Source: Escherichia coli
GTDB taxonomy: Bacteria; Pseudomonadota; Gammaproteobacteria; Enterobacterales; Enterobacteriaceae
DNA: 64,000 nt
Direction: 5' to 3' (one strand)
Assembly: GCF_017348835.2 (NCBI RefSeq)
Contig: NZ_CP071375.1
This document shows positions 426 to 13,781 of the stretch, piece after piece. The position numbers and the translations under genes were made by a program. The notes beneath the pieces are model-generated. The model saw nothing but the letters and a program-made list of their open reading frames with translations, was not told the DNA's origin and made no database searches. Each line of letters begins with the position of its first letter. Position 1 is the stretch's first letter.

Positions 426-2591
426 ATGGCAGAACAGGCAGCGGCGGACCTGTTTGGTGCGTTGCCGGAACCGTCAGGTCTGGTTAAAGCCGCAGTAGCT
501 GCTGCGCAGGCTGCCGCTGCAGCAGCAGGGATCCCGGATATGGCTGGTGCAGTTCAGGATGCGGCGGCGTCGATTGCTGCCGGTGGACCGGGGGCGCATA
601 ACGTCACAGTAAGTGGTAGTGCGGTGCCGCCGCAGCTGCTTTTGTTTGCAGGCATGAATGGTTCGGAAGGGCTTGGAAACCTGTTTTCCTACACAGTACA
701 GCTTAAAACCCCGGATACCCTGAACCTCGGATATGTCTCCCCCGCAGCCAACCTGCCGCTCAAGCCGATGGTGGGCAAAGACCTGTGCGTCAGTATCGAA
801 CTGGACGGCGGCGGCAAACGGCATATCAGCGGGCTGGTGACAGCGGCGCGGGTGGTGGGCTATGAGGGCCGCTCGGTAACGTATGAATTACGCCTTGAGC
901 CGTGGCTGAAACTGCTGACCCATACCAGCGACTACAAAGCGTTCCAGAATAAAACCGTGGTGGATATTCTCGATGAAGTACTGGATGAATATTCCTTTCC
1001 GGTGGAAAAGCGGCTGGTGGAAAATTATCCACCCCGCGCCTGGCAGGTGCAGTATGGTGAAACCGACTTCGATTTCATCCAGCGCCTGATGCAGGAATGG
1101 GGGATTTACTGGTGGTTTGAGCACAGCGAGAACAGCCACACGCTGGTGCTGGCGGATGCCATCAATGGTCATAAAGCGTGCCCTGACTCGCCGCTGGTGG
1201 AGTGGCACCAGGAAGGGCTGAAACTGGACAAGGAATTTATCCACACCATTACGGCCAGTGAGAGGCTGCGTACTGGAAAGTGGGTGATGGACGATTTTGA
1301 TTTTATGAAGCCTCGTTCGCTGCTTAAAAGTACCGTGGCTAGTCCGCGTGATACCGGTCATGCTGAATACGAGCATTATGAATGGCCTGGTGATTACTTC
1401 ACTACGGGCGAAGGCGAGATGCTGACGCGCATTCGTATGGAAGCGCAGCGCAGCCCCGGCAGCCGGGCACATGGGGCAGGTCATATCCGCACCCTCATGA
1501 CGGGTTACACCTTTACGCTGATGAATCATCCAACGGCAGAGGTCAACCAGGAATACCTACTGGTACAGACCACGCTGTTTTTACGGGATAATGCGCAGCA
1601 CAGCGGTCAGGAGCAGCATTTTACCTATGTCACCACGTTTGAACTGCACCCCACCAGCGAAGTTTACCGCCCACAGCGAACCCTAAGCAAACCCCACACC
1701 AAAGGCCCGCAGAGCGCCATCGTCACCGGCCCGGCAGGGCAGGAAATCTGGACGGATAAATATGGCCGGGTGAAGGTGCAGTTTGGCTGGGACCGTTACC
1801 TGTACGATGCGGAACAGCCGTACACGCCGGTGGCCGCCATCACGGGGCGCGGAGAGAGCCGGAAAATCTGGTATTACCACACGGACCTGACGGGCACGGT
1901 ACAGGAGGTGACCGCGCCGGACGGGACGCTGGTGTGGGCGGGCTATCAGGCGGGATTTGGTGAAAACCGGGGCGACATCAGCAACAGCGGGGCGTACTTT
2001 GAGCAGCCGCTGCGGCTGCCGGGGCAGTATTATGATGAAGAGACGGGGCTGCACTATAATCTGTTCAGATATTATGCGCCGGAGTGCGGGAGGTTTATCA
2101 GTCAGGATCCGATTTCGATCCGTGGGGGGCTGAATCTTTACCGGTATGCGCCTAATCCGCTGAGATGGATTGATCCGCTTGGATTAGACTGGAATTATCA
2201 TTTAACAGATAGTGATGGTAAGGTTTATTATCATGGACGTGCAAGTGATAATGCGTCAATGGAAGATGTTGCCCGTCGTCACAGCAATACAACAGGAGCT
2301 GATAAGGCAAGATTTGGAGAAACAGATACCATGACACGAATAACTGAGCCGGGTACGCCAAAATTAACAGCACAAGGTGTGGAAGGTATTGCCATAGGTG
2401 ATAATACTATCGGGCGAAGAGCTGATAACGGTAATAGGGGTCGGGGTAATAATATTCGGGGTGTTAATCCCAATGCAACCAATGCTACTGAAAAACTAAA
2501 TGCGGGTAAAGAATTTTTAAATGGACGAATACCAAGTGAAATGACTGGTGAAACATTGACAGGTAAGGAGTATTTTGAATCAAAATGTTAA
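426..2591 (+). CDS. Chimeric VgrG N-terminal domain fused in frame to Rhs core C-terminus plus C-terminal toxin tip (CT1)
   Basis: 721-aa ORF. Residues ~70-455 carry VgrG motifs ([61 protein letters not shown]). From nt ~1800 the sequence becomes Rhs core ([21 protein letters not shown] ... PxxxxDPLGL, motif at 2172-2186), followed by a ~135-aa AT-rich unique tip. The true start may lie downstream of 426. Confidence 0.7.
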
Positions 2592-3557: not shown

Positions 3558-4020
3558 TTACGGTTGAATAAGATCGTCAATAAACACCGCACCGTCAACG
3601 GTACGCAACCAGCGTGGCGCTTTCAGTTTTGCCGCAAAGAACCAGACCAGTTCACAAAGCAGCCCCGTCAGGGGTTGTTCCATTTTAGATCCCTGCGCCT
3701 GTTCCGTCAGGAGCTGGAGTAATACCTCGCAATATTCACACAATTGCTCAGGATCCAGGTCAAAGTGCGGAAATGAGGCAGGCAGGTCGTCGAGTGTCAG
3801 GCTGTCTACCAGATGGGGTGGAATAGGATCGTTCAGCGTGGGAGACAGAATGGCGATACAGGCGCGAAGTCGTCCGAACAACGCCATTTTCAGCGCCGGA
3901 TCGTGACACTCTATAAGGGTTCAGCGAAGCGATCGCAGTGATCGGCCAGGTCTGTGAAATCGGTGGCAGAACTGAAAGGAATGGACAATAAATCATAATC
4001 AGGGGTGAGGACTGTAGCCA
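3558..4020 (-). pseudogene. Hypothetical gene of unknown function, apparently frameshifted
   Basis: ATG at 4020 preceded by a GGAGG Shine-Dalgarno; 36 codons then stop at 3910-3912. A second frame continues as the 109-aa ORF 3558..3887. No family recognised. Confidence 0.3.
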
Positions 4021-4097
4021 TAAGGCAACCTCCGATAAGTAGGCGTTAAAACCACCACCGAAGAGACCAATCTTACGGGTGGTGGAACCGGGCGGAG

Positions 4098-6932
4098 TTG
4101 GTCTTACCGGCCTTATCGGATACCGGCGCATCTTTCGATGCCACCGCCCGGCCCACCATTGAGGTACAGCCGTGCGTGCAACACAAAAAAGACGCTGGCG
4201 CGTCATGTGTCGCCGATAAGACTTATTCAGGAGACCAATCCCGACGCCTGATTTTGCAGACGCGGCATAACGATACAACGATCGCGAAATGGCGACAAAC
4301 CCCTTTCCCGGAAGGCGGCTCGCAAAATCAGAAATATCACAGGGAAAGACAGAGCGCCGCAACGCGGCGGGATGTACCGCTTCACGTACAACGAAAACCA
4401 TTTTCCGGTAGCGGTGGAACTCCCCGGCGAACGCAGGTAACGCTGGAATACGACACCCTGAGCCGGGTGGTGAAAGAGACGGACCCGGCAGGCCGGGTGA
4501 CACAGACGCAGTGGAACGGCAGTTTTGCTGAAATCACGCGCCGGGCACTGGATGACGACCACGTATGGAAGGCGGATTACAACGAACACGGCCAGGTGAT
4601 ACGGGAGACGGACCCGGAAGGGCGCGTCACGCGCTACGGGTATGATGAACAGGGGCTGGCGGTCAGCCGCACGGATGCGCGGGGCGGCGAGGCTGCGCTG
4701 GCGCATGATGCGCGCGGCCAGCTGAGGCGTTACACCGACTGTTCAGGGCGTGCCACGGGTTATGAATACGATGAAGACGGCAACCTGACGGTGGTGACGG
4801 ACGCGGAGGGGAAAACGGTACGTATCCGCTATAACCGTCTGGGACTGCCGGAGACGGTAAATCATCCCGGTAAACAGCAGGACCGTTACACGTGGAACGC
4901 GCTGGGGTTACTGAGCAGCCACCGTCGCATCACAGGCAGTGTGCAGTCCTGGCAGTATACGCCGCGCGGTCTGCTGGCGCTCCACGTAGATGAAGAGAAA
5001 CGGGAGACGCGCTGGCATTATACCGCGGAGGGATGGATTGCCAGTCTGAGCAACGGCAACGGAGCGCTTTACCGGTTCAGTCACGATGCGGACGGACGGC
5101 TGACGGGAGAACAGCGCCCGGACGGTCTGATACGGATGTTTGTGCTGAATGCGGGCGGGTATCCGGTCATCATCCAGACGCAGGGTACAGAAGGCGGGGG
5201 GCGCAATGAACAGCAGGAGCGTGACGCGCTGGGCCGCCTGCTGCGCAGTGACACGCAGCACAGTACACGGACCTTCAGCTACAACCGTCTTGACCAGATA
5301 ACGGAAGTGACGCTCACCCCGACGAAAGAAGGGGAACGGCTGCACCACATGCAGGCGGACACGGTGCGCTTTGCGTATGACCGCAGCGGCTGGCTGACGG
5401 CAGAGCACAGCGTGCACGGCAGCATAAAATATCAGCGTGACGCGCTGGGCAATCCCACCGATATCACGTTGCCGGACGGGCAGCATCTCAGTCATCTTTA
5501 CTACGGCAGCGGACATCTGCTCCAGACGGCACTGGACGGTATCACGGTCAGCGAATATGAGCGTGACAGTCTGCACCGTCAGGTGATGCGCACGCAGGGG
5601 AAACTGGCGACGTTCAGCGGCTACAACGCCGACAACCGGTTAAGCTGGCAGCGCAGTCTGCCAGGTGGCAGCCAGAATCCACAGCAGACCGGTAACCCCC
5701 CGGCGCAGAACGACAGCGTGACGGCGCGGGACTATATCTGGAATGCGGACGGTGAGGTCGGCGGCATCAATGACAAACTGCGCGGTTGCCTGGTGTTCAG
5801 CTATGACCGCAGCGGCTGGCTGACCAGTCGCACGGGTCAGATGTACGACCATGACCATTATTATTACGACAAAGCGGGCAACCTGCTGACGGACGAGTAT
5901 CAGAGCGCGGTGATGGATAACCGCCTGCCGGGCTACGGGCGTGACCGTTACCGCTATAACGAATGGGGCGAACTGACAGAGCGCAGGGACCAGCAACTGG
6001 AGTGGAATGCGCAGGGCCAGTTAACGCGGGTCATCAGCAGCAACAGCGAGACGCGGTATCAGTATGATGCGCTGGGCAGGCGTATCAGCAAGGCGACCAG
6101 CAATCTCCATACCGACCGGGGAGAACGAAGCCGGACAACGTTTGTGTGGGAAGGGGTCCGGCTGTTGCAGGAGACAACGTGGCAGGGAAAGCGGACGTAC
6201 CTGTACGACGCGGAACAGCCGTACACGCCGGTGGCCGCCATCACCGGGCGCGGAGAGAGCCGGAAAATCTGGTATTACCACACGGACCTGACGGGCACGG
6301 TACAGGAGGTGACCGCGGCGGACGGGACGCTGGTGTGGGCGGGCTATCAGGCGGGGTTCGGAGAAAACCGGGGCGACATCAGCAACAGCGGGGCGTATTT
6401 TGAACAGCCGCTGCGGCTGCCGGGGCAGTATTATGATGAAGAGACGGGGCTGCACTATAATCTGTTCAGATATTATGCGCCGGAGTGCGGGAGGTTCGTA
6501 AGCCAGGATCCGATTTCGATCCGGGGTGGTCTGAATCTTTACCGGTATGCGCCGAATCCGATTACTTGGATCGATCCGTGGGGATTGGCAAAGGGGGATT
6601 ATGGTAAAATGCCTACGTTCCCTGGTTGGCAGAAACATCATAATATTCCACAAAATATGGCTACTCATTCGGCAATTGTTGACTCTGGATTTGATATACA
6701 TAATAGTCGTAACATTACAACCTTGCCAAAAACTGGAAGTATAGATACTGCCAGAACAGTGCACAGTGGAATGCACACAGGAGATTATGACAGGATGGTA
6801 AAAAATGCTTTAGATCAAATTGACTCGTTGAATGCTTCCCCTGAGATCAAAAAAATGCATATAGAAGCCTTATCTGATGATATTGGCAATAAATTGAGAA
6901 CAAAACAAATTACGTTAAATGCTGCATGTTGA
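4098..6932 (+). CDS. Orphan rhs fragment (N-terminally truncated core with YD repeats) with toxin tip CT2
   Basis: 944-aa ORF; YD-repeat Rhs core similarity begins near nt 4330 with a frame break just upstream. Core ends at DPWGL (6573-6587), then a ~115-aa tip containing WQKHHNIPQ and a downstream His (HSGMHTGDY), possibly an HNH/AHH-type nuclease. Confidence 0.7.
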   Translation: MVLPALSDTGASFDATARPTIEVQPCVQHKKDAGASCVADKTYSGDQSRRLILQTRHNDTTIAKWRQTPFPEGGSQNQKYHRERQSAATRRDVPLHVQRKPFSGSGGTPRRTQVTLEYDTLSRVVKETDPAGRVTQTQWNGSFAEITRRALDDDHVWKADYNEHGQVIRETDPEGRVTRYGYDEQGLAVSRTDARGGEAALAHDARGQLRRYTDCSGRATGYEYDEDGNLTVVTDAEGKTVRIRYNRLGLPETVNHPGKQQDRYTWNALGLLSSHRRITGSVQSWQYTPRGLLALHVDEEKRETRWHYTAEGWIASLSNGNGALYRFSHDADGRLTGEQRPDGLIRMFVLNAGGYPVIIQTQGTEGGGRNEQQERDALGRLLRSDTQHSTRTFSYNRLDQITEVTLTPTKEGERLHHMQADTVRFAYDRSGWLTAEHSVHGSIKYQRDALGNPTDITLPDGQHLSHLYYGSGHLLQTALDGITVSEYERDSLHRQVMRTQGKLATFSGYNADNRLSWQRSLPGGSQNPQQTGNPPAQNDSVTARDYIWNADGEVGGINDKLRGCLVFSYDRSGWLTSRTGQMYDHDHYYYDKAGNLLTDEYQSAVMDNRLPGYGRDRYRYNEWGELTERRDQQLEWNAQGQLTRVISSNSETRYQYDALGRRISKATSNLHTDRGERSRTTFVWEGVRLLQETTWQGKRTYLYDAEQPYTPVAAITGRGESRKIWYYHTDLTGTVQEVTAADGTLVWAGYQAGFGENRGDISNSGAYFEQPLRLPGQYYDEETGLHYNLFRYYAPECGRFVSQDPISIRGGLNLYRYAPNPITWIDPWGLAKGDYGKMPTFPGWQKHHNIPQNMATHSAIVDSGFDIHNSRNITTLPKTGSIDTARTVHSGMHTGDYDRMVKNALDQIDSLNASPEIKKMHIEALSDDIGNKLRTKQITLNAAC

Positions 6933-7559: not shown

Positions 7560-9656
7560 GGGTATGACGAACAGTTCCTGCCGGAGACGGTCAGCCACCC
7601 CGGTAAACAGCAGGACCGTTACACCTGGAACGCACTGGGGTTACTGAGCAGCCATCGTCGCATCACGGGCAGTGTGCAGTCCTGGCAGTATACGCCGCGC
7701 GGGATGCTGGCGCGCCATACGGATGAAGAGAAACGGGAGACGCGCTGGCAGTACACCCCGGAAGGGCTGGTTGCCAGTCTGAGCAACGGCAACGGAGCGC
7801 TTTACCGGTTCAGTCACGATGCGGACGGACGGCTGACGGGAGAACAGCGCCCGGACGGTCTGATACGGATGTTTGTGCTGAATGCGGGCGGGTATCCGGT
7901 CATCATCCAGACGCAGGGTACAGAAGGCGGGGGGCGCAATGAACAGCAGGAGCGTGACGCGCTGGGCCGCCTGCTGCGCAGTGACACGCAGCACAGTACA
8001 CGGACCTTCAGCTACAACCGTCTTGACCAGATAACGGAAGTGACGCTCACCCCCACGGAAGAAGGGGAACGGCTGCACCACATGCAGGCGGACACGGTGC
8101 GCTTTGCGTATGACCGCAGCGGCTGGCTGACGGCAGAGCACAGCGTGCACGGCAGCATAAAATATCAGCGTGACGCGCTGGGCAATCCCACCGACATCAC
8201 GTTACCGAACGGGCAGCACCTCAGCCATCTTTACTACGGCAGCGGGCATCTGCTCCAGACGGCACTGGACGGTATCACGGTCAGTGAATATGAGCGTGAC
8301 AGTCTGCACCGTCAGGTGATGCGCACGCAGGGGAAACTGGCGACGTTCAGCGGCTACAACGCCGACAACCGGTTAAGCTGGCAGCGCAGCCTGCCAGGTG
8401 GCAGCCAGAACCCACAGCAGGCCGGTAACCCCCCGGCGCAGAAAGACAGCGTGACAGCGCGGGATTATATCTGGAACGCAGACGGTGAAGTCGGCGGCAT
8501 CAATGACAAACTGCGCGGTTGCCTGGTGTTCAGCTATGACCGCAGCGGCTGGCTGACCAGTCGCACGGGTCAGATGTACGACCATGACCATTATTATTAC
8601 GACAAAGCGGGCAATCTGCAGACGGATGAGCATCAGGGAGCGGTGCCGGATAACCGCCTGCCGGGCTACGGGCGTGACCGCTACCGCTATAACGAATGGG
8701 GCGAACTGACAGAGCGCAGGGACCAGCAACTGGAGTGGAATACGCAGGGCCAGTTAACGCGGGTCATCAGCAGCAACAGCGAGACGCGGTATCAGTATGA
8801 TGCGCTGGGCAGGCGTATCAGCAAGGCGACCAGCAATCTCCATACCGACCGGGGAGAACGAAGCCGGACAACGTTTGTGTGGGAAGGGTTCCGGCTGTTG
8901 CAGGAGACAACGTGGCAGGGAAAGCGGACATACCTGTACGACGCGGAACAGCCGTACACGCCGGTGGCGGCCATCACGGGGCGCGGAGAGAGCCAGAAAA
9001 TCTGGTATTACCACACGGACCTGACGGGCACGGTACACGAGGTAACCGCGCCGGACGGGACGCTGGTGTGGGCGGGCTACCAGGCGGGATTTGGCGAAAA
9101 CCGGGGCGACATCAGCAACAGCGGGGCGTACTTTGAGCAGCCGCTGCGACTGCCGGGGCAGTACTTTGACGAAGAAACAGGGCTGCATTACAATCTGTTC
9201 AGGTATTATGCGCCGGAGTGCGGGAGGTTCGTAAGCCAGGATCCGATAGGGTTGCTTGGTGGGCTGAACTTATATGCTTATGCGCCTAATCCGCTGTCAT
9301 GGATCGATCCGTTAGGTTTGACTCCATGTGCAAATGGGGGGAATGCTAAAAAACATGGTGGCACAGGACATAATAATTTTATTGATAATCTTATTGCGGA
9401 TGCTCGCAGTCAGGGTGCTACAAATATCAGGAAAAACCAATGGCAGGTAGATGTTAATGGAAATGTTGTTGGTAAAAATAGACCGGATGTTCAATTTGAT
9501 TTAAATGGTAAACATTATAATATTGAGGTTGATACAACAATAAAAGGCAGCGTTGGTCACCAAAATACTATACCTACACTTGATCCCAACTCAAGAAATA
9601 CATTTTGGCTAATTGATGACTTAGGGAATATTTTAAATGGCCACTCAACCATCTGA
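7560..9656 (+). CDS. Orphan rhs fragment with toxin tip CT3
   Basis: Rhs core similarity starts ~7560 (ORF-track start 7674). DPLGL at 9306-9320, then a ~110-aa tip with RPDVQF ... NIEVDTTIK, possibly a PD-(D/E)xK-like nuclease. Core is near-identical to the next fragment at an offset of 2586 bp. Confidence 0.7.
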   Translation, partial: GYDEQFLPETVSHPGKQQDRYTWNALGLLSSHRRITGSVQSWQYTPRGMLARHTDEEKRETRWQYTPEGLVASLSNGNGALYRFSHDADGRLTGEQRPDGLIRMFVLNAGGYPVIIQTQGTEGGGRNEQQERDALGRLLRSDTQHSTRTFSYNRLDQITEVTLTPTEEGERLHHMQADTVRFAYDRSGWLTAEHSVHGSIKYQRDALGNPTDITLPNGQHLSHLYYGSGHLLQTALDGITVSEYERDSLHRQVMRTQGKLATFSGYNADNRLSWQRSLPGGSQNPQQAGNPPAQKDSVTARDYIWNADGEVGGINDKLRGCLVFSYDRSGWLTSRTGQMYDHDHYYYDKAGNLQTDEHQGAVPDNRLPGYGRDRYRYNEWGELTERRDQQLEWNTQGQLTRVISSNSETRYQYDALGRRISKATSNLHTDRGERSRTTFVWEGFRLLQETTWQGKRTYLYDAEQPYTPVAAITGRGESQKIWYYHTDLTGTVHEVTAPDGTLVWAGYQAGFGENRGDISNSGAYFEQPLRLPGQYFDEETGLHYNLFRYYAPECGRFVSQDPIGLLGGLNLYAYAPNPLSWIDPLGLTPCANGGNAKKHGGTGHNNFIDNLIADARSQGATNIRKNQWQVDVNGNVVGKNRPDVQFDLNGKHYNIEVDTTIKGSVGHQNTIPTLDPNSRNTFWLIDDLGNILNGHSTI

Positions 9657-10221
9657 TAATAAAAAATTAGTGTTTGCTGTAGTGAACAGTGATTTTAATG
9701 ATATAGAAAGAACTATCCATAATGGATTGAACTGGCCGAGTGAACCAATAAGTAGTCGAAAACTTATTGAGGAAATACACTTGACTATTCAACGTGGTGG
9801 GGTCTTGCCGTCCGAGGGGGTTTTCTATTATCCGTGTATAAATGACAGCAAATTAATTTTTCTGTCTAATTTATCTGATGGATGGGACTCTTTACTTTAT
9901 TGCCTGTCAAAACAGAATAAATCTAGCTATCTACTGTTTAGGTTATTGATGGGGGAATACCCTCTGATGGAAATGAGTTTTATAGAGTCAGGGAAAACAA
10001 TACGTTTAATTAGAGTGATAAAAGAAAATAAATGGATTTTTTATGAGGTCGGGGAACCGTTATGGTTTGAAGAAAAGGAAAACTATTCAAAAAGAAGAAT
10101 CGCAGATAGAATTACTTATGATCTCTTACTCTCCTATTCACGGAAAAATGGCATTGACTTTGATTCCCCCGCATTTTTTAAAACGGAAAAAGAATCACTA
10201 TGGTTGAATGAAATACGATAG
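9637..10221 (+). CDS. Putative immunity protein for CT3 (194 aa)
   Basis: Overlaps the CT3 stop by 20 bp; AT-rich. Confidence 0.5.
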   Translation: MATQPSDNKKLVFAVVNSDFNDIERTIHNGLNWPSEPISSRKLIEEIHLTIQRGGVLPSEGVFYYPCINDSKLIFLSNLSDGWDSLLYCLSKQNKSSYLLFRLLMGEYPLMEMSFIESGKTIRLIRVIKENKWIFYEVGEPLWFEEKENYSKRRIADRITYDLLLSYSRKNGIDFDSPAFFKTEKESLWLNEIR

Positions 10222-10234
10222 TTTATTTAAATAA

Positions 10235-10272
10235 AAAGCCGGAAAAGAAATTAAACTTTCCCGGCTTTTTTA
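10235..10272. terminator. Hairpin plus T-tract, likely bidirectional intrinsic terminator
   Basis: aaagccgg ... ccggcttttttatt between the immunity-3 stop and the convergent SymE-like gene. Confidence 0.5.
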
Positions 10273-10276
10273 TTAT

Positions 10277-10457
10277 TTAACTCTCGTTCAGCACACTAAA
10301 CATCCCGTCCCGCATCCCCTTAACTGCCTGTTTAACCTGATAAAGCTCCCTGCGCAGTTCCTGTACTTCGTTGTTATCCGCAAGCAGGATCAGACATCCC
10401 TCCGAGATCTTCACGGTAACGCCCGTGCCGATCTCAAATCCCGCTTCTCTCAGCCAT
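10277..10457 (-). pseudogene. SymE-like toxin gene, 5'-truncated by the adjacent rhs fragment boundary
   Basis: C-terminal 60 aa (AKWLREAGFEIGTGVTVKISEGCLILLADNNEVQELRRELYQVKQAVKGMRDGMFSVLNES) resemble SymE ([28 protein letters not shown]). Similarity ends where rhs core sequence starts at ~10458. Confidence 0.55.
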
Positions 10458-12335
10458 TTGGCGCTGAATGCGGGCGGGTTTCCGGTCATCATCCAGACGC
10501 AGGGCACAGAGGGCGGGGTGCGTAATGAGCGGCAGGAGCGTGATGCGCTGGGCCGCCTGCTGCGCAGTGACACGCAGCACAGTACACGGACCTTCAGCTA
10601 CAACCGTCTTGACCAGATAACGGAAGTGACGCTCACCCCCACGGAAGAAGGGGAACGGCTGCACCACATGCAGGCGGACACGGTGCGCTTTGCGTATGAC
10701 CGCAGCGGCTGGCTGACGGCAGAGCACAGCGTGCACGGCAGCATAAAATATCAGCGTGACGCGCTGGGCAATCCCACCGACATCACGTTACCGAACGGGC
10801 AGCACCTCAGCCATCTTTACTACGGCAGCGGGCATCTGCTCCAGACGGCACTGGACGGTATCACGGTCAGTGAATATGAGCGTGACAGTCTGCACCGTCA
10901 GGTGATGCGCACGCAGGGGAAACTGGCGACGTTCAGCGGCTACAACGCCGACAACCGGTTAAGCTGGCAGCGCAGCCTGCCAGGTGGCAGCCAGAACCCA
11001 CAGCAGGCCGGTAACCCCCCGGCGCAGAAAGACAGCGTGACAGCGCGGGATTATATCTGGAACGCAGACGGTGAAGTCGGCGGCATCAATGACAAACTGC
11101 GCGGTTGCCTGGTGTTCAGCTATGACCGCAGCGGCTGGCTGACCAGTCGCACGGGTCAGATGTACGACCATGACCATTATTATTACGACAAAGCGGGCAA
11201 TCTGCAGACGGATGAGCATCAGGGAGCGGTGCCGGATAACCGCCTGCCGGGCTACGGGCGTGACCGCTACCGCTATAACGAATGGGGCGAACTGACAGAG
11301 CGCAGGGACCAGCAACTGGAGTGGAATACGCAGGGCCAGTTAACGCGGGTCATCAGCAGCAACAGCGAGACGCGGTATCAGTATGATGCGCTGGGCAGGC
11401 GTATCAGCAAGGCGACCAGCAATCTCCATACCGACCGGGGAGAACGAAGCCGGACAACGTTTGTGTGGGAAGGGTTCCGGCTGTTGCAGGAGACAACGTG
11501 GCAGGGAAAGCGGACATACCTGTACGACGCGGAACAGCCGTACACGCCGGTGGCGGCCATCACGGGGCGCGGAGAGAGCCAGAAAATCTGGTATTACCAC
11601 ACGGACCTGACGGGCACGGTACACGAGGTAACCGCGCCGGACGGGACGCTGGTGTGGGCGGGCTACCAGGCGGGATTTGGTGAAAACCGGGGCGACATCA
11701 GCAACAGCGGGGCGTACTTTGAGCAGCCGCTGCGGCTGCCGGGGCAGTATTATGATGAAGATACGGGGCTGCACTATAATCTGTTCAGATATTATGCGCC
11801 GGAGTGCGGGCGGTTTATCAGTCAGGACCCGATAGGGCTGGCGGGAGGAATAAACCTATATGCTTATGCGCCTAATCCGCTAAGTTATATTGATCCTCTT
11901 GGGCTTTGTAAATTAAGGGGAAGCGATGGGCGCTACAGAAGTGCACAGAATATTCAGGAAGAAATAGGCGGCCTACCCAATTTTGCAGGAAAAACTCCAG
12001 GAGAAATACGACAAACTTTGCGTAATCGAGGTTATTCGTCGGTACAAGCGTATAGTGGAGGAGAGGTCTGGACAAAAGCATTACCTGACGGAAATACTGT
12101 TGCAGTGAGGCTTGATCCGGCAAATCCTCGCTCACCTTCACATTATGCTGATGCTGTACCTCATGCTCATATTGAAACAGTTCCAACATCCAGTGTTTCT
12201 AATGGGAATTATCGCCCGCGAGACGTGACTGGCAGGCATACTGCCACTGGTGGGGTTTCTGATCGAGGAACAAATCCGAATCATAACGCTGATGTTTACA
12301 TTCCAATGTCTCCGGGACGATTCCCATATGATTAA
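10458..12335 (+). CDS. Orphan rhs fragment with toxin tip CT4
   Basis: Rhs core similarity from ~10458 (ORF-track start 10371 is a read-through of the SymE antisense). DPLGL at 11892-11906, then a ~143-aa unique tip with no recognised family. Confidence 0.7.
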   Translation: MALNAGGFPVIIQTQGTEGGVRNERQERDALGRLLRSDTQHSTRTFSYNRLDQITEVTLTPTEEGERLHHMQADTVRFAYDRSGWLTAEHSVHGSIKYQRDALGNPTDITLPNGQHLSHLYYGSGHLLQTALDGITVSEYERDSLHRQVMRTQGKLATFSGYNADNRLSWQRSLPGGSQNPQQAGNPPAQKDSVTARDYIWNADGEVGGINDKLRGCLVFSYDRSGWLTSRTGQMYDHDHYYYDKAGNLQTDEHQGAVPDNRLPGYGRDRYRYNEWGELTERRDQQLEWNTQGQLTRVISSNSETRYQYDALGRRISKATSNLHTDRGERSRTTFVWEGFRLLQETTWQGKRTYLYDAEQPYTPVAAITGRGESQKIWYYHTDLTGTVHEVTAPDGTLVWAGYQAGFGENRGDISNSGAYFEQPLRLPGQYYDEDTGLHYNLFRYYAPECGRFISQDPIGLAGGINLYAYAPNPLSYIDPLGLCKLRGSDGRYRSAQNIQEEIGGLPNFAGKTPGEIRQTLRNRGYSSVQAYSGGEVWTKALPDGNTVAVRLDPANPRSPSHYADAVPHAHIETVPTSSVSNGNYRPRDVTGRHTATGGVSDRGTNPNHNADVYIPMSPGRFPYD

Positions 12336-12346
12336 TGTGAGGTTTT

Positions 12347-12610
12347 ATGAATATCCGAAATCAATATAATGAAGCCTTAAATAAATTAGAAGTTGATGTT
12401 AATGATGGTTTGAGAGATTTAATAAACATATATTGTGTGGCTATTGATTCTTTTGAAAATGATATCGTTGACTCGATTGCTTTATACGTGATTGATATGG
12501 GAAATAAAGATACTTGTCGATATCTACAAGAAGTCTTATCAGAGAATGAAGATCCTTATTTAGTAAAAGAATTTAATGCATGGATAAAAGAAATTAAGAA
12601 AAAATATTAA
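12347..12610 (+). CDS. Putative immunity protein for CT4 (87 aa)
   Basis: AT-rich ORF 11 bp after the CT4 stop. Confidence 0.5.
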   Translation: MNIRNQYNEALNKLEVDVNDGLRDLINIYCVAIDSFENDIVDSIALYVIDMGNKDTCRYLQEVLSENEDPYLVKEFNAWIKEIKKKY

Positions 12611-12615
12611 AATAA

Positions 12616-12655
12616 AAGCCGGGAAGGTTATAAAATCTTCCCGGCTTTTTATTTT
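12616..12655. terminator. Intrinsic terminator hairpin (9-bp stem gccgggaag/cttcccggc) with T-tract
   Basis: Perfect inverted repeat followed by tttttattttt. Confidence 0.6.
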
Positions 12656-12900
12656 TAATTCTCGTTCAGTACACTAAACATCCCGTCCCGCATCCCCTTA
12701 ACCGCCTGTTTAACCTGATAAAGTTCCCTGCGCAGTTCCTGTACTTCGTTGTTATCGGCAAGCAGGATCAGGCAGCCTTCCGAGATCTTCACAGTAACGC
12801 CCGTGCCGATCGAAAATTCCGCTTCTCTCAGCCATTTGGCGCTGATTTTGATCACCGGCGTGTCGCTGCTGTTGGGCAGATATCCTACGGTACAACGGCG
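12655..12900 (-). CDS. SymE-like toxin homologue (AbrB-fold type I toxin family), possibly defective at its start
   Basis: 66-aa track ORF begins at a GTG; the SymE-like frame extends further upstream (TPEVTISKTQRRCTVGY...) with no in-frame ATG, while an ATG sits in another frame. Confidence 0.5.
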   Translation of the reverse strand, partial: RRCTVGYLPNSSDTPVIKISAKWLREAEFSIGTGVTVKISEGCLILLADNNEVQELRRELYQVKQAVKGMRDGMFSVLNEN

Positions 12901-13001
12901 TTGTGTTTTGGAAATGGTGACTTCTGGCGTAATATCATGTTTAAGTTAGGGGCTTTCGTAGTCATACCCCGACTCTCCCCGGCCCTAAACACAACCCCCA
13001 C

Positions 13002-13781
13002 TCACCACAACCTAAACTCATCCGCATCCTGCCATGCCGGAAACTTTTCTCTATATTCCCGCAATGCCATCATCGACAGCTCCGCATCAATGCGCGTTGC
13101 CTGATGCGCGTCGGCAGTAGCGATAATCTCGCCTTGTGGATTAATCACCCGGCTGTCACCGCGATAATGGCAGCCGTTGCCATCGCTGCCGACGCGATTG
13201 CATCCCGCCACATACGCCTGATTCTCAATCGCGCGGGCCGTCAGCAATGCCTGCCAGTGCAGAGAGCGCGGAGCAGGCCAGTTGGCGACGTACAGGGCGA
13301 GGTCATAATCGTTGAGATTGCGCGACCACACAGGAAAACGTAAGTCGTAGCACACCAGCGGCAAAATACGCCAGCCGCGCCATTCCACAATCACTCGCGC
13401 ATTGCCCGCTTTATAATGCAGATGCTCATCAGCCATTCGGAACAGATGACGCTTATCATAAAAATGTACCGTGCCGCCCGGCTCAACCAGCAAAAAGCGG
13501 TTAACTGAACCAGACTCCGTTTGTAATGCAACACTGCCTGCAATCAGCGCATTGCACTGCTGCGCTTTAGCTGTCATCCAGTTCACTACGTCATCTTGCG
13601 CTAGCGACGAAGCTGCCGCTTCCATGGCAAAGCCGCTGGTAAACATCTCCGGTAGAACGATCACATCGCGCCCGGTAATACCTTCCAGTTGACGATCAAA
13701 ATGACGCAGGTTGGCAGGACCATCCATCCACACCAGTGGTTGCTGCAAAAGCGTAATCTTCAAACCAGGCACGGTGTACAA
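13002..13781 (-). CDS. yafV: Omega-amidase / nitrilase-family hydrolase YafV
   Basis: 259-aa product ...PGLKITLLQQPLVWMDGPANLRHF... matches YafV. Confidence 0.9.
   Translation of the reverse strand: MYTVPGLKITLLQQPLVWMDGPANLRHFDRQLEGITGRDVIVLPEMFTSGFAMEAAASSLAQDDVVNWMTAKAQQCNALIAGSVALQTESGSVNRFLLVEPGGTVHFYDKRHLFRMADEHLHYKAGNARVIVEWRGWRILPLVCYDLRFPVWSRNLNDYDLALYVANWPAPRSLHWQALLTARAIENQAYVAGCNRVGSDGNGCHYRGDSRVINPQGEIIATADAHQATRIDAELSMMALREYREKFPAWQDADEFRLW

What the first reader, a model, noticed from the sequence alone, without database searches (positions are those of the whole stretch)
10277..12900. Two SymE-like toxin genes convergent with Rhs cassettes; one is cut exactly at an rhs fragment boundary
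Minus-strand ORFs at 10277..10457 and 12655..12900 encode nearly identical C-terminal halves of a SymE-like (AbrB-fold, SOS-induced type I toxin family) protein. Each sits just beyond a hairpin terminator following immunity genes 3 and 4. The upstream copy loses similarity at ~10458, precisely where the next rhs core fragment begins (shared bases gctga), so the last cassette appears to have been inserted into a pre-existing cassette's SymE-like gene. The downstream copy has no in-frame ATG for its N-terminal region, while an ATG lies in a different frame, so it may itself be frameshifted. A recurring 'rhs tip, immunity, terminator, reverse SymE-like gene' module is not something I can place in a described system.
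Basis: partly seen in the sequence, partly recalled or inferred. Interest (0 to 1): 0.7.

Follow-up and report, generated by a model that had tools for sequence, protein, structure and literature searches.

The report
Broken SymE-type toxin genes bounding Rhs cassettes
The two reverse-strand ORFs are real but disabled copies of a known SymE-family toxin gene that in enterobacteria almost always sits tail-to-tail with the immunity gene of an Rhs toxin cassette; here it serves as a conserved cassette boundary and recombination point, not as a new system.

Summary
The window is E. coli (100% identical to strain PE164 over the 671 bases compared): a T6SS remnant, four rhs tip/immunity cassettes, then yafV. 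Minus-strand copy A (10277..10467) and copy B (12655..12945) are 93.7% identical over 191 nt, each follows a strong two-way terminator hairpin, and both match Pfam SymE_toxin (E 3e-11).

They are not SymE proper. They belong to the Rhs-linked subfamily whose Salmonella member is STM0294.1n/iasE, which a 2020 paper title reports as repressed by the antisense RNA IsrA.

Copy A is cut at codon ~35 and joined to antisense rhs core through a 5-bp microhomology (GCTGA, 10463..10467). Copy B is not frameshifted. Small deletions removed its ribosome-binding site and ATG.

In 30 of 32 loci from about 20 genera, a convergent Rhs core end lies 0.7-1.5 kb beyond the gene; the other two loci end at contig edges. 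Most copies in arrays are 5'-truncated. Junction A recurs in three other Escherichia genomes, and in the two with readable flanks the cassettes on both sides differ. A recombination breakpoint lies inside copy A (10260..10339).

The RHS-SymE association was already drawn in 2007. This is a new member of a known kind, of moderate interest.

The parts
7674..9656 (+). rhs core fragment 3 (core ends ...DPLGL at 9320) with toxin tip CT3 (9321..9656)
   Evidence: ORF list. tblastn of the Rhs core end matches 8871..9320. PGAP in PE164 calls it a partial RHS CDS. In strain A20 the same tip sits on a full-length Rhs.
9637..10221 (+). immunity gene 3 (194 aa; no family match)
   Evidence: ORF. No NCBIfam hit. 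98-100% identical to the gene that follows the full Rhs in strain A20.
10233..10271 (.). two-way terminator hairpin A (A-tract, stem GCCGGAAAAG/CTTTCCCGGC, T-tract)
   Evidence: Folds at -17.9 (+) and -22.1 (-) kcal/mol, z -4.9 and -5.8. The same stem sequence is visible in about 30 of 36 copies from other genera, counted by eye from the printed sequences.
10277..10467 (-). symE-like copy A: the 3' 62 codons plus stop, cut at codon ~35 of the 97-aa form. PGAP models a 71-aa ORF (10277..10492) that starts from an ATG supplied by antisense rhs sequence.
   Evidence: The copy is a mosaic: 10222..10339 resembles A20 and 10260..10467 resembles GF4-3.
10463..10467 (.). junction microhomology GCTGA shared by symE-like and rhs core
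   Evidence: Three-way comparison with copy B and with rhs cores at 5148 and 7881. The same junction is present in GF4-3, PapRG-06-5 and Escherichia sp. E1V33.
10463..12335 (+). rhs core fragment 4 (core ends at 11906) with toxin tip CT4 (11907..12335). An in-frame ORF runs back to TTG 10371 through antisense symE-like.
   Evidence: The stretch 11760..12941 is 93.8% identical to the tip/immunity/symE unit behind a full rhsC-locus Rhs in JNE151685.
12347..12610 (+). immunity gene 4 (87 aa; no family match)
   Evidence: The same gene follows full-length Rhs in JNE151685.
12614..12649 (.). two-way terminator hairpin B
   Evidence: Terminator scan. Folds at -26.5 (+) and -23.0 (-) kcal/mol, z -6.5 and -6.2.
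12655..12945 (-). symE-like copy B: codons 4-97 of the 97-aa form are intact in frame, but the Shine-Dalgarno sequence and ATG are missing. Remnants of the 5' leader extend to ~12963.
   Evidence: PGAP aa from GTG 12855 in PE164, and 86 aa from ATT 12915 in 14EC033.
12785..12868 (+). sub-threshold Rfam isrA match antisense to copy B (a second one lies at 10407..10502, antisense to copy A)
   Evidence: 28 and 36.3 bits against a gathering score of 51. Relatives in Salmonella and Shigella score 80-100 bits at the same relative position.
13002..13772 (-). yafV, the first core-genome gene beyond the array
   Evidence: PGAP annotation of the identical PE164 sequence.

Best explanation
The two ORFs are disabled copies of an Rhs-linked subfamily of the SymE toxin family (Pfam PF08845).

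The intact gene. It encodes 97-109 aa beginning MAEHDITPEV. It sits tail-to-tail with the immunity gene of an Rhs tip/immunity cassette and shares a two-way terminator with it. The Salmonella relative (STM0294.1n/iasE) is, according to the literature, SOS-induced, encodes an endoribonuclease activity, and is repressed by the cis-antisense RNA IsrA. That makes it a type I toxin-antitoxin pair.

The conserved block. The gene's conserved 3' half and the terminator form the right-hand boundary of the exchangeable unit, which consists of the last ~50 codons of rhs core, the toxin tip, the immunity gene, the terminator and symE-like. Shown here: this block is a site of homologous crossover when cassettes are swapped. 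Occasional illegitimate joins fuse a 5'-cut symE-like piece to an rhs core fragment, and such joins then persist as linkers inside orphan arrays.

This window. Copy A is such an old linker: it is cut at codon ~35 through a GCTGA microhomology. Copy B is the array-terminal copy next to yafV and has lost its ribosome-binding site and start codon.

Inferred, not shown: neither copy now makes a working toxin. When intact, the gene acts as an addiction or stabilising element for the cassette region.
For: Identity:
- Pfam SymE_toxin E 3.4e-11.
- 185 homologues found (the best 120 listed), most named SymE family by their sources and carrying PF08845.

Subfamily and antisense RNA:
- Rfam isrA at 80-100 bits (gathering score 51) lies antisense inside the Rhs-adjacent SymE-like genes of Salmonella and Shigella.
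- IsrA and STM0294.1n show inverse expression (PMC2330248).
- The title of Acuna et al. 2020 (PMID 32253028), as cited in PMC13006217, states repression, SOS induction and endoribonuclease activity.

Association with Rhs:
- 30 of 32 loci from one-genome-per-species sampling have a convergent Rhs core end 0.7-1.5 kb beyond the gene. The other two loci end at contig edges.
- All E. coli contexts inspected show the same arrangement.

Coding history: dN/dS is 0.18 over 29 unique copies, and third codon positions are the most variable.

Defects: copy A is truncated and carries the junction. Copy B lacks the conserved leader sequence GGTAGTTAATCATGGCTGAAC.

Unit and crossover:
- 11760..12941 is 93.8% identical to the unit behind a different Rhs family at the rhsC locus.
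- The mosaic breakpoint lies at 10260..10339.
- Junction A is flanked by different cassettes in GF4-3 and PapRG-06-5.
- The terminator stem is conserved across genera.
Against: - Within the junction-A lineage the symE part differs almost only at synonymous sites (4-7 synonymous against 0-2 non-synonymous codon differences). This could mean the truncated protein is still under selection. It could equally reflect gene conversion from intact copies.
- PGAP models ORFs for both copies.
- No transcription data exist for this strain.
- Promoter-like hits are not above background (6 found against 3.0 +/- 1.8 expected).
- The isrA matches in the window are below the gathering score.
- The stabilising role is an inference by analogy only.
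- Only 2 of the 4 cassettes in this window carry the gene.
Confidence: 0.75

Rival explanations
1. The 5'-replaced copies are still working genes. On this reading the conserved C-terminal ~60-80 residues (AKWLREAGF...GMFSVLNES) are the functional module, expressed from new start codons supplied by antisense rhs sequence (copy A, ATG at 10492) or from GTG 12855 / ATT 12915 (copy B).
For: - Junction-A copies differ mainly at synonymous sites: dN 0-0.007 against dS 0.02-0.22.
- A and B show dN 0 and dS 0.33 over 32 codons.
- Truncated forms with new starts are common: clusters P0011 and P0014 have 111 and 428 members.
- PGAP annotates them as proteins.
Against: - Copy A lacks the first beta-strand region of the domain and has no recognisable Shine-Dalgarno sequence.
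- One of the four junction-A copies has a premature stop (PapRG-06-5).
- The commoner junction class shows relaxed dN/dS of ~0.3-0.6.
- In other genera most array copies carry stops or frameshifts.
- The demonstrated mosaicism means that conversion from intact copies can mimic purifying selection.
Confidence: 0.15
2. One reading: cassette 4 (rhs fragment, CT4, imm4, symE) was inserted into the intact SymE-like gene that belonged to cassette 3.
For: The topology is compatible with it: a 3' symE piece, then an rhs fragment, then a second, longer symE copy, with a 5-bp microhomology at the joint.
Against: - The identical joint occurs with unrelated cassettes on both sides in GF4-3 and PapRG-06-5, and the joint is also present in another Escherichia species.
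- In strain A20, cassette 3 is linked to a long-type 109-aa symE. That gene matches copy A only up to ~10339. So the part of copy A that touches the joint did not come with cassette 3.
Confidence: 0.07
3. The conserved block is kept mainly for its RNA or regulatory output on the rhs strand. Candidates are an IsrA-like antisense transcript or read-through that expresses the next orphan tip/immunity pair, together with the shared terminator. On this reading the protein is secondary.
For: - isrA-like sequence lies on the + strand in both copies.
- The orthologous Shigella interval (SF0268 Rhs - yafV) yields a detected transcript, Ssr1 (PMC4782007). The Rfam Ssr1 model matches 12477..12918 with E 2e-71.
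- In copy A the + strand frame runs unbroken from TTG 10371 into rhs fragment 4.
Against: - The substitution pattern is that of a protein-coding gene: third positions are the most variable and dN/dS is 0.18.
- No convincing promoter was found.
- By its mapped 5' end and ~150-nt size, Ssr1 lies in the immunity-gene part of the interval, not antisense to symE-like.
Confidence: 0.1

Closest known systems
SymE-SymR of E. coli K-12 (type I toxin-antitoxin; Kawano, Aravind & Storz 2007, PMC1891008)
   Same: Same Pfam family (PF08845). A small protein described there as AbrB-related with toxin-like properties. That paper's Fig. 7A legend already lists neighbourhoods with haemagglutinin and RHS genes, an optional second SymE gene, and cHTH and primase-helicase partners. 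The same partners are seen here in strains A20, E04 and 200164.
   Different: These are not SymE proper: they score 42.9 and 34.7 bits against the NCBIfam equivalog cut-off of 132. They have a different C-terminal tail (EVQELRxELYQxKQxVKG...SVLNES), lie at a different locus, match no SymR in Rfam, and show no LexA box. Both copies in the window lack a native start.
IasE (STM0294.1n) / IsrA of Salmonella Typhimurium
   Same: Same subfamily and the same position at the end of Rhs tip/immunity cassettes (vgrG - Rhs - imm - reverse SymE-like). Rfam isrA maps antisense inside the gene. Inverse expression is reported in PMC2330248. Repression, SOS induction and endoribonuclease activity are stated in the title of PMID 32253028.
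   Different: The window copies belong to the short (97-aa) form, which lacks a 12-residue segment, so isrA scores only 28-36 bits. Both copies are 5'-defective. The 2020 paper could not be read here; only its title is known.
Rhs orphan tip/immunity arrays formed by C-terminal displacement (from my own knowledge: Jackson et al. 2009; Koskiniemi et al. 2014)
   Same: Core fragments ending PxxxxDPxGL, followed by variable tips and small immunity genes, stacked downstream of a main rhs. Exchange occurs by recombination in the core.
   Different: I found no description of a conserved right-hand boundary. Here the symE-like 3' end plus the terminator plays that part, and a crossover has been mapped inside it. 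No paper in the searched library makes this link explicit.
SymE gene inside a CDI cluster (Proteus mirabilis BL95 / E. coli M19; PMC11278526)
   Same: A SymE-family gene lies on the opposite strand between the main cdiA/cdiI pair and orphan cdiA-CT/cdiI pairs, with a terminator 6 nt after symE.
   Different: It is a different polymorphic-toxin family (CdiA, not Rhs). The authors treated the gene as unrelated to the cluster.
Ssr1 'sRNA' locus of Shigella flexneri (PMC4782007; Rfam RF02627)
   Same: It is the orthologous interval, between an Rhs-family gene (SF0268) and yafV. The 654-nt Rfam model spans the immunity-gene end, the terminator and antisense symE-like, and matches window 12477..12918.
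   Different: It was described as an intergenic sRNA, with no mention of the immunity or SymE-like genes. The match is far below the model's gathering score (248 against 820 bits) because the immunity part differs.

Membership tests
SymE_toxin family (Pfam PF08845) | Significant match to the family profile | tested here: met
   Copy B: E 3.4e-11, 43.5 bits, model positions 1-52 of 54. Copy A: SymE model E 1e-8. Most homologues carry PF08845 in precomputed annotation.
SymE_toxin family (Pfam PF08845) | AbrB-like swapped-hairpin fold | tested here: inconclusive
   The AlphaFold2 monomer model has mean pLDDT 43.5, too poor for a fold search. Its secondary-structure order (short helix, two strands, long C-terminal helix) is compatible but proves nothing. 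No PDB relative was found by sequence.
SymE proper (NCBIfam NF010128, equivalog) | Whole-protein score at or above the curated cut-off of 132 bits | tested here: not met
   42.9 bits (copy B, extended) and 34.7-35 bits (copy A).
Type I toxin-antitoxin pair of SymE/SymR or IasE/IsrA type | Complete toxin ORF with ribosome-binding site and start codon | tested here: not met
   Copy A is cut at codon ~35. Copy B lacks the conserved GGTAGTTAATCATGG leader and start, and has no ATG/GTG/TTG before codon 32.
Type I toxin-antitoxin pair of SymE/SymR or IasE/IsrA type | cis-antisense RNA overlapping the 5' part of the toxin gene | tested here: inconclusive
   Window isrA matches score 36.3 and 28 bits, below the gathering score of 51. 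Relatives score 80-100 bits. No SymR match. Promoter-like sites are not above the shuffle background.
Type I toxin-antitoxin pair of SymE/SymR or IasE/IsrA type | LexA box / SOS control upstream | tested here: not met
   No CTGT-N8-ACAG-type site with at least 7 of 8 core matches lies upstream of copy B or of the intact E. coli rhsC-locus copies. Salmonella has only an atypically spaced TACTGT...ACAGTA.
Type I toxin-antitoxin pair of SymE/SymR or IasE/IsrA type | Growth inhibition on expression, relieved by the antisense RNA | not testable with these tools
   Needs an experiment.
Rhs orphan tip/immunity cassette array | rhs core fragment ending PxxxxDPxGL, then a variable tip, then a small immunity ORF, repeated | tested here: met
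   Four core ends lie at 2186, 6587, 9320 and 11906, each followed by an unrelated tip and ORF. PGAP flags the fragments as partial RHS CDSs.

The most novel reading that the evidence does not exclude
The symE-like 3' half with its two-way terminator is a functional part of Rhs cassette biology across Enterobacterales. On this reading it is the conserved right-hand homology arm of a mobile unit (core end, tip, immunity gene, terminator, symE-like). When intact, and in some islands partnered with an HTH gene, it is also an addiction lock that hinders loss of the current tip/immunity pair through core-core recombination. The truncated copies then persist as linkers because they keep cassettes exchangeable. 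I found no paper that states this.
Probability: 0.35. Interest if true: 0.6.

Novelty: new member of a known kind. Interest (0 to 1): 0.38.

Why it matters
For annotation: the two ORFs should be read as 5'-defective remnants of an IasE/SymE-type gene, not as working toxins and not as a new system. The Shigella 'intergenic' Ssr1 interval is the same immunity-gene / symE-like locus.

For Rhs biology: the work gives a concrete, checkable right-hand boundary for exchangeable tip/immunity units, and one mapped crossover inside it. This could explain how identical tips move between unrelated Rhs families and loci. It also suggests using symE-like remnants as markers to delimit orphan cassettes. If the intact gene does stabilise cassettes, it would link type I toxin-antitoxin pairs to the upkeep of interbacterial weapon arsenals.

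Tried and rejected
- Structure route. The AlphaFold2 model from a 12-sequence alignment was too poor (pLDDT 43.5), so no fold search was run. A PDB sequence search found nothing.
- Antisense promoter. The consensus scan gave 6 sites against 3.0 +/- 1.8 expected. The + strand candidates at 12788..12817 and 12909..12938 are weak, and the first is not conserved in copy A. The sequence just upstream of Rfam isrA position 1 shows no -10/-35 in Salmonella, Shigella or the window, so that position is probably not the start site.
- LexA boxes. None is convincing.
- SymR. No Rfam match, even at E up to 10.
- Frameshift in copy B. Rejected: the frame is continuous with intact relatives, and the ATG in another frame at ~12937 is incidental.
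- Ssr1 as the antisense partner. Rejected: its mapped 5' end (model position ~131) and ~150-nt size place it in the immunity-gene part of the interval.
- Family searches. CT3, imm3, CT4, imm4 and the 154-aa reverse ORF gave no NCBIfam hit; the 154-aa ORF, the only one also scanned against Pfam, gave no hit there either.
- Acuna et al. 2020 could not be opened. Only its title is used.
Full report
WHAT THE WINDOW IS. The 671 bases 12340..13010 are 100% identical to E. coli strain PE164. In PGAP's annotation of that strain the order is: tssF, a vgrG fragment, four rhs tip/immunity cassettes, yafV, ivy, fadE. Rhs core ends (PxxxxDPxGL) lie at 2186, 6587, 9320 and 11906 on the + strand. Only two SymE-like pieces occur in the whole 64 kb.

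THE OBSERVATION.
- Copy A is the 3' part of minus ORF 10277..10573, and copy B is minus ORF 12655..12855.
- A (10277..10467) and B (12655..12845) are identical at 179 of 191 positions. Identity falls to 30% in the immunity-gene ends and to 24% beyond 10467/12845.
- Each copy begins 5-6 nt after a hairpin with an A-tract on one side and a T-tract on the other. The hairpins fold at -17.9 to -26.5 kcal/mol on either strand, and none of 200 shuffles does as well.
- Copy B extended to its upstream stop matches Pfam SymE_toxin with E 3.4e-11.
- Both copies hit only the SymE model in NCBIfam, at 35-43 bits against a cut-off of 132. They are SymE family but not SymE proper.
[quoted passage not shown] It gives the same name to the copy-B allele in strain 14EC033, which differs by one synonymous base.

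COPY A. Three-way comparison with copy B and with the rhs cores at 5148 and 7881 puts the break at a shared GCTGA, 10463..10467. Upstream of it the minus-strand frame reads antisense rhs core. PGAP's 71-aa model starts at an ATG in that antisense sequence. Copy A keeps residues 35-97 of the 97-aa form.

COPY B.
- Intact relatives are 97-109 aa, start MAEHDITPEV, and share the leader ...CAAGCAACTAAC(A/T)GAGGTAGTTAATCATGGCTGAACACGAT across genera.
- Copy B matches from codon 4 on, in frame. Upstream it reads GACTACGAAAGCCCCTAACTTAAACATGAT.
- That sequence aligns to the intact leader with three short gaps, which remove the Shine-Dalgarno sequence and the ATG.
- The yafV-linked copy of GF4-3 has the same defective leader, so the loss is old at this locus.
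- Copy B is therefore not frameshifted. The ATG in another frame is incidental.

WHICH SymE RELATIVE.
- A Salmonella homologue (P0108) lies in the order vgrG - Rhs - immunity gene - reverse SymE-like - orphan immunity gene - reverse SymE-like.
- Rfam isrA hits at 93-100 bits lie antisense inside both of those genes, and at 80 bits inside the Shigella rhsC-locus gene.
- IsrA is a 423-nt RNA antisense to STM0294.1n, and the two are expressed inversely (PMC2330248).
- The window's own isrA matches, on the + strand and antisense to both copies, score 36 and 28 bits, below the gathering score of 51.

HOW GENERAL THE ASSOCIATION IS.
- A scan of one genome per species returned 32 loci from about 20 genera of Enterobacterales.
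- In 30 of them a convergent Rhs core end lies 0.7-1.5 kb beyond the 3' end of the SymE-like gene. The other two loci stop at contig ends.
- Every E. coli context inspected shows the same arrangement, at the yafV, ybgA (rhsC) and pptA loci and on small islands that also carry an HTH gene, a primase and XerC-type integrases.
- Kawano, Aravind and Storz drew RHS/haemagglutinin, cHTH and primase-helicase neighbourhoods of SymE genes in 2007.
- Incidental notes of the same arrangement exist for Erwinia, Pantoea and a Proteus CDI cluster.
- The association is therefore real, strong and already recorded, though I found no paper that explains it.

STATE OF THE COPIES ELSEWHERE.
- Of about 55 pieces in the 32 loci, only a handful are clearly intact. 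Most are 5'-truncated and abut rhs core fragments, or carry stops or frameshifts. One array (L018) alternates nine pieces with eight core-end fragments.
- In E. coli a second, commoner junction cuts the gene at codon ~24 (VLPAQH|LPNRSDT...) and fuses it to antisense rhs core.
- The family nevertheless has a coding history. Over a 32-codon core in 29 unique copies, dN/dS is 0.18 and third positions vary most.
- The terminator stem GCCGGGAAG/CTTCCCGGC is visible in about 30 of 36 copies across genera, counted by eye from the printed sequences.

THE EXCHANGEABLE UNIT AND THE CROSSOVER.
- Window 11760..12941 comprises the last ~145 nt of core, CT4, imm4, the terminator and nearly all of copy B. 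It is 93.8% identical to a unit that sits behind a full-length Rhs of a different family at the rhsC locus of JNE151685. The core ends of the two families are only ~47% identical in protein.
- Cassette 3 sits in strain A20 behind a full-length Rhs and is followed by an intact 109-aa SymE, an HTH gene, a primase and XerC.
- Window 9900..10339 is 98-100% identical to A20. From 10340 to 10467 identity drops to 70-80%.
- Conversely, GF4-3's junction-A copy is ~100% identical from 10260 rightwards and unrelated to the left.
- The crossover that placed cassette 3 beside the junction therefore lies in 10260..10339, inside the symE-like 3' end.
- Junction A itself occurs in GF4-3, PapRG-06-5 and Escherichia sp. 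E1V33. In GF4-3 and PapRG-06-5 the immunity genes on the left and the tips on the right are different.
- The junction is thus older than cassette 3, and probably than cassette 4.

MECHANISM, WITH STEPS MARKED.
Shown:
- SymE-family identity.
- Near-obligate tail-to-tail linkage to Rhs immunity genes with a shared terminator.
- 5' defects in both copies.
- A conserved unit bounded by the core end and symE-like.
- A homologous crossover inside symE-like.
- Persistence of a microhomology joint as a linker.
From the literature:
- The intact Salmonella relative is SOS-induced, has endoribonuclease activity and is repressed by antisense IsrA.
Inferred:
- The window copies are non-functional as toxins.
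- Intact copies may stabilise the cassette region, by analogy with toxin-antitoxin cassettes in superintegrons (my own knowledge).

OPEN POINT. Within the junction-A lineage, changes in the symE part are nearly all synonymous, though one of the four copies has a nonsense codon. Either the truncated protein is still useful, or the variation is imported by conversion from intact copies. The mosaic seen makes conversion plausible. I weight the 'still functional' rival at 0.15.

VERDICT. The genes are new, defective members of a known kind. The added value is the cross-genus regularity and the mapped recombination role of the symE-like/terminator block, which is modestly interesting and testable.

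Noticed in passing
window 426..2591 (+): A single ORF joins a VgrG N-terminal part in frame to the last ~130 residues of an Rhs core plus tip CT1. In PE164 tssF lies directly next to this vgrG fragment. The main rhs and part of the T6SS cluster therefore appear to be deleted, and all four cassettes may be undeliverable orphans.
   Followed up: partly
window 3558..4021 (-); intact copy at L043 5144..5608 (-): A reverse-strand ORF lies between immunity gene 1 and rhs fragment 2. It is frameshifted here and is an intact 154 aa in PapRG-06-5. It occupies the same cassette-end position as symE-like and has no Pfam or NCBIfam match.
   Followed up: partly
window 10371..12335 (+) and 12749..12949 (+): The strand antisense to symE-like is itself open (MLSASRIR...). 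In copy A this frame runs unbroken from a TTG into rhs fragment 4, giving a 654-aa ORF. Whether it is ever translated is unknown.
   Followed up: no
L047 (E. coli E04), L048 (strain 200164), L049 (strain A20): Rhs tips or orphan arrays end with an intact 109-aa SymE preceded by an HTH gene, then a primase and XerC-type integrases. In E04 the island holds only rhs fragments and immunity genes between two integrase genes. It looks like a small integrative vehicle for cassettes.
   Followed up: partly
L044, L045, L046, L048 (E. coli); protein clusters P0011 and P0014: A second, much commoner junction class has symE-like cut at codon ~24 and fused to antisense rhs core, with PGAP starting the ORF at GTG (VLPAQHLPN...). 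It occurs twice in tandem in one array and also as the terminal copy next to pptA.
   Followed up: partly
window 12477..12918 (+); Shigella flexneri 301 SF0268-yafV interval: The Rfam Ssr1 model (654 nt) is the orthologous Rhs-yafV interval. It covers an immunity-gene end, the terminator and antisense symE-like. The published 'intergenic sRNA' interval therefore overlaps these genes, which the paper does not mention.
   Followed up: partly
L007, L014, L016, L019, L020, L022, L023, L029, L031, L033, L036: A recurrent C-terminal allele ends ...GIKDVLV* and is followed by an out-of-frame remnant of SVLNES. It appears to be an old frameshift variant spread across several genera.
   Followed up: no
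L006, L007, L016: Some near-full-length copies have a different conserved upstream sequence (…NQQVKYKNIISKTQRR) with no ATG, in three genera. Sister E. coli alleles are modelled by PGAP from an ATT codon at the ISKTQRR position.
   Followed up: no
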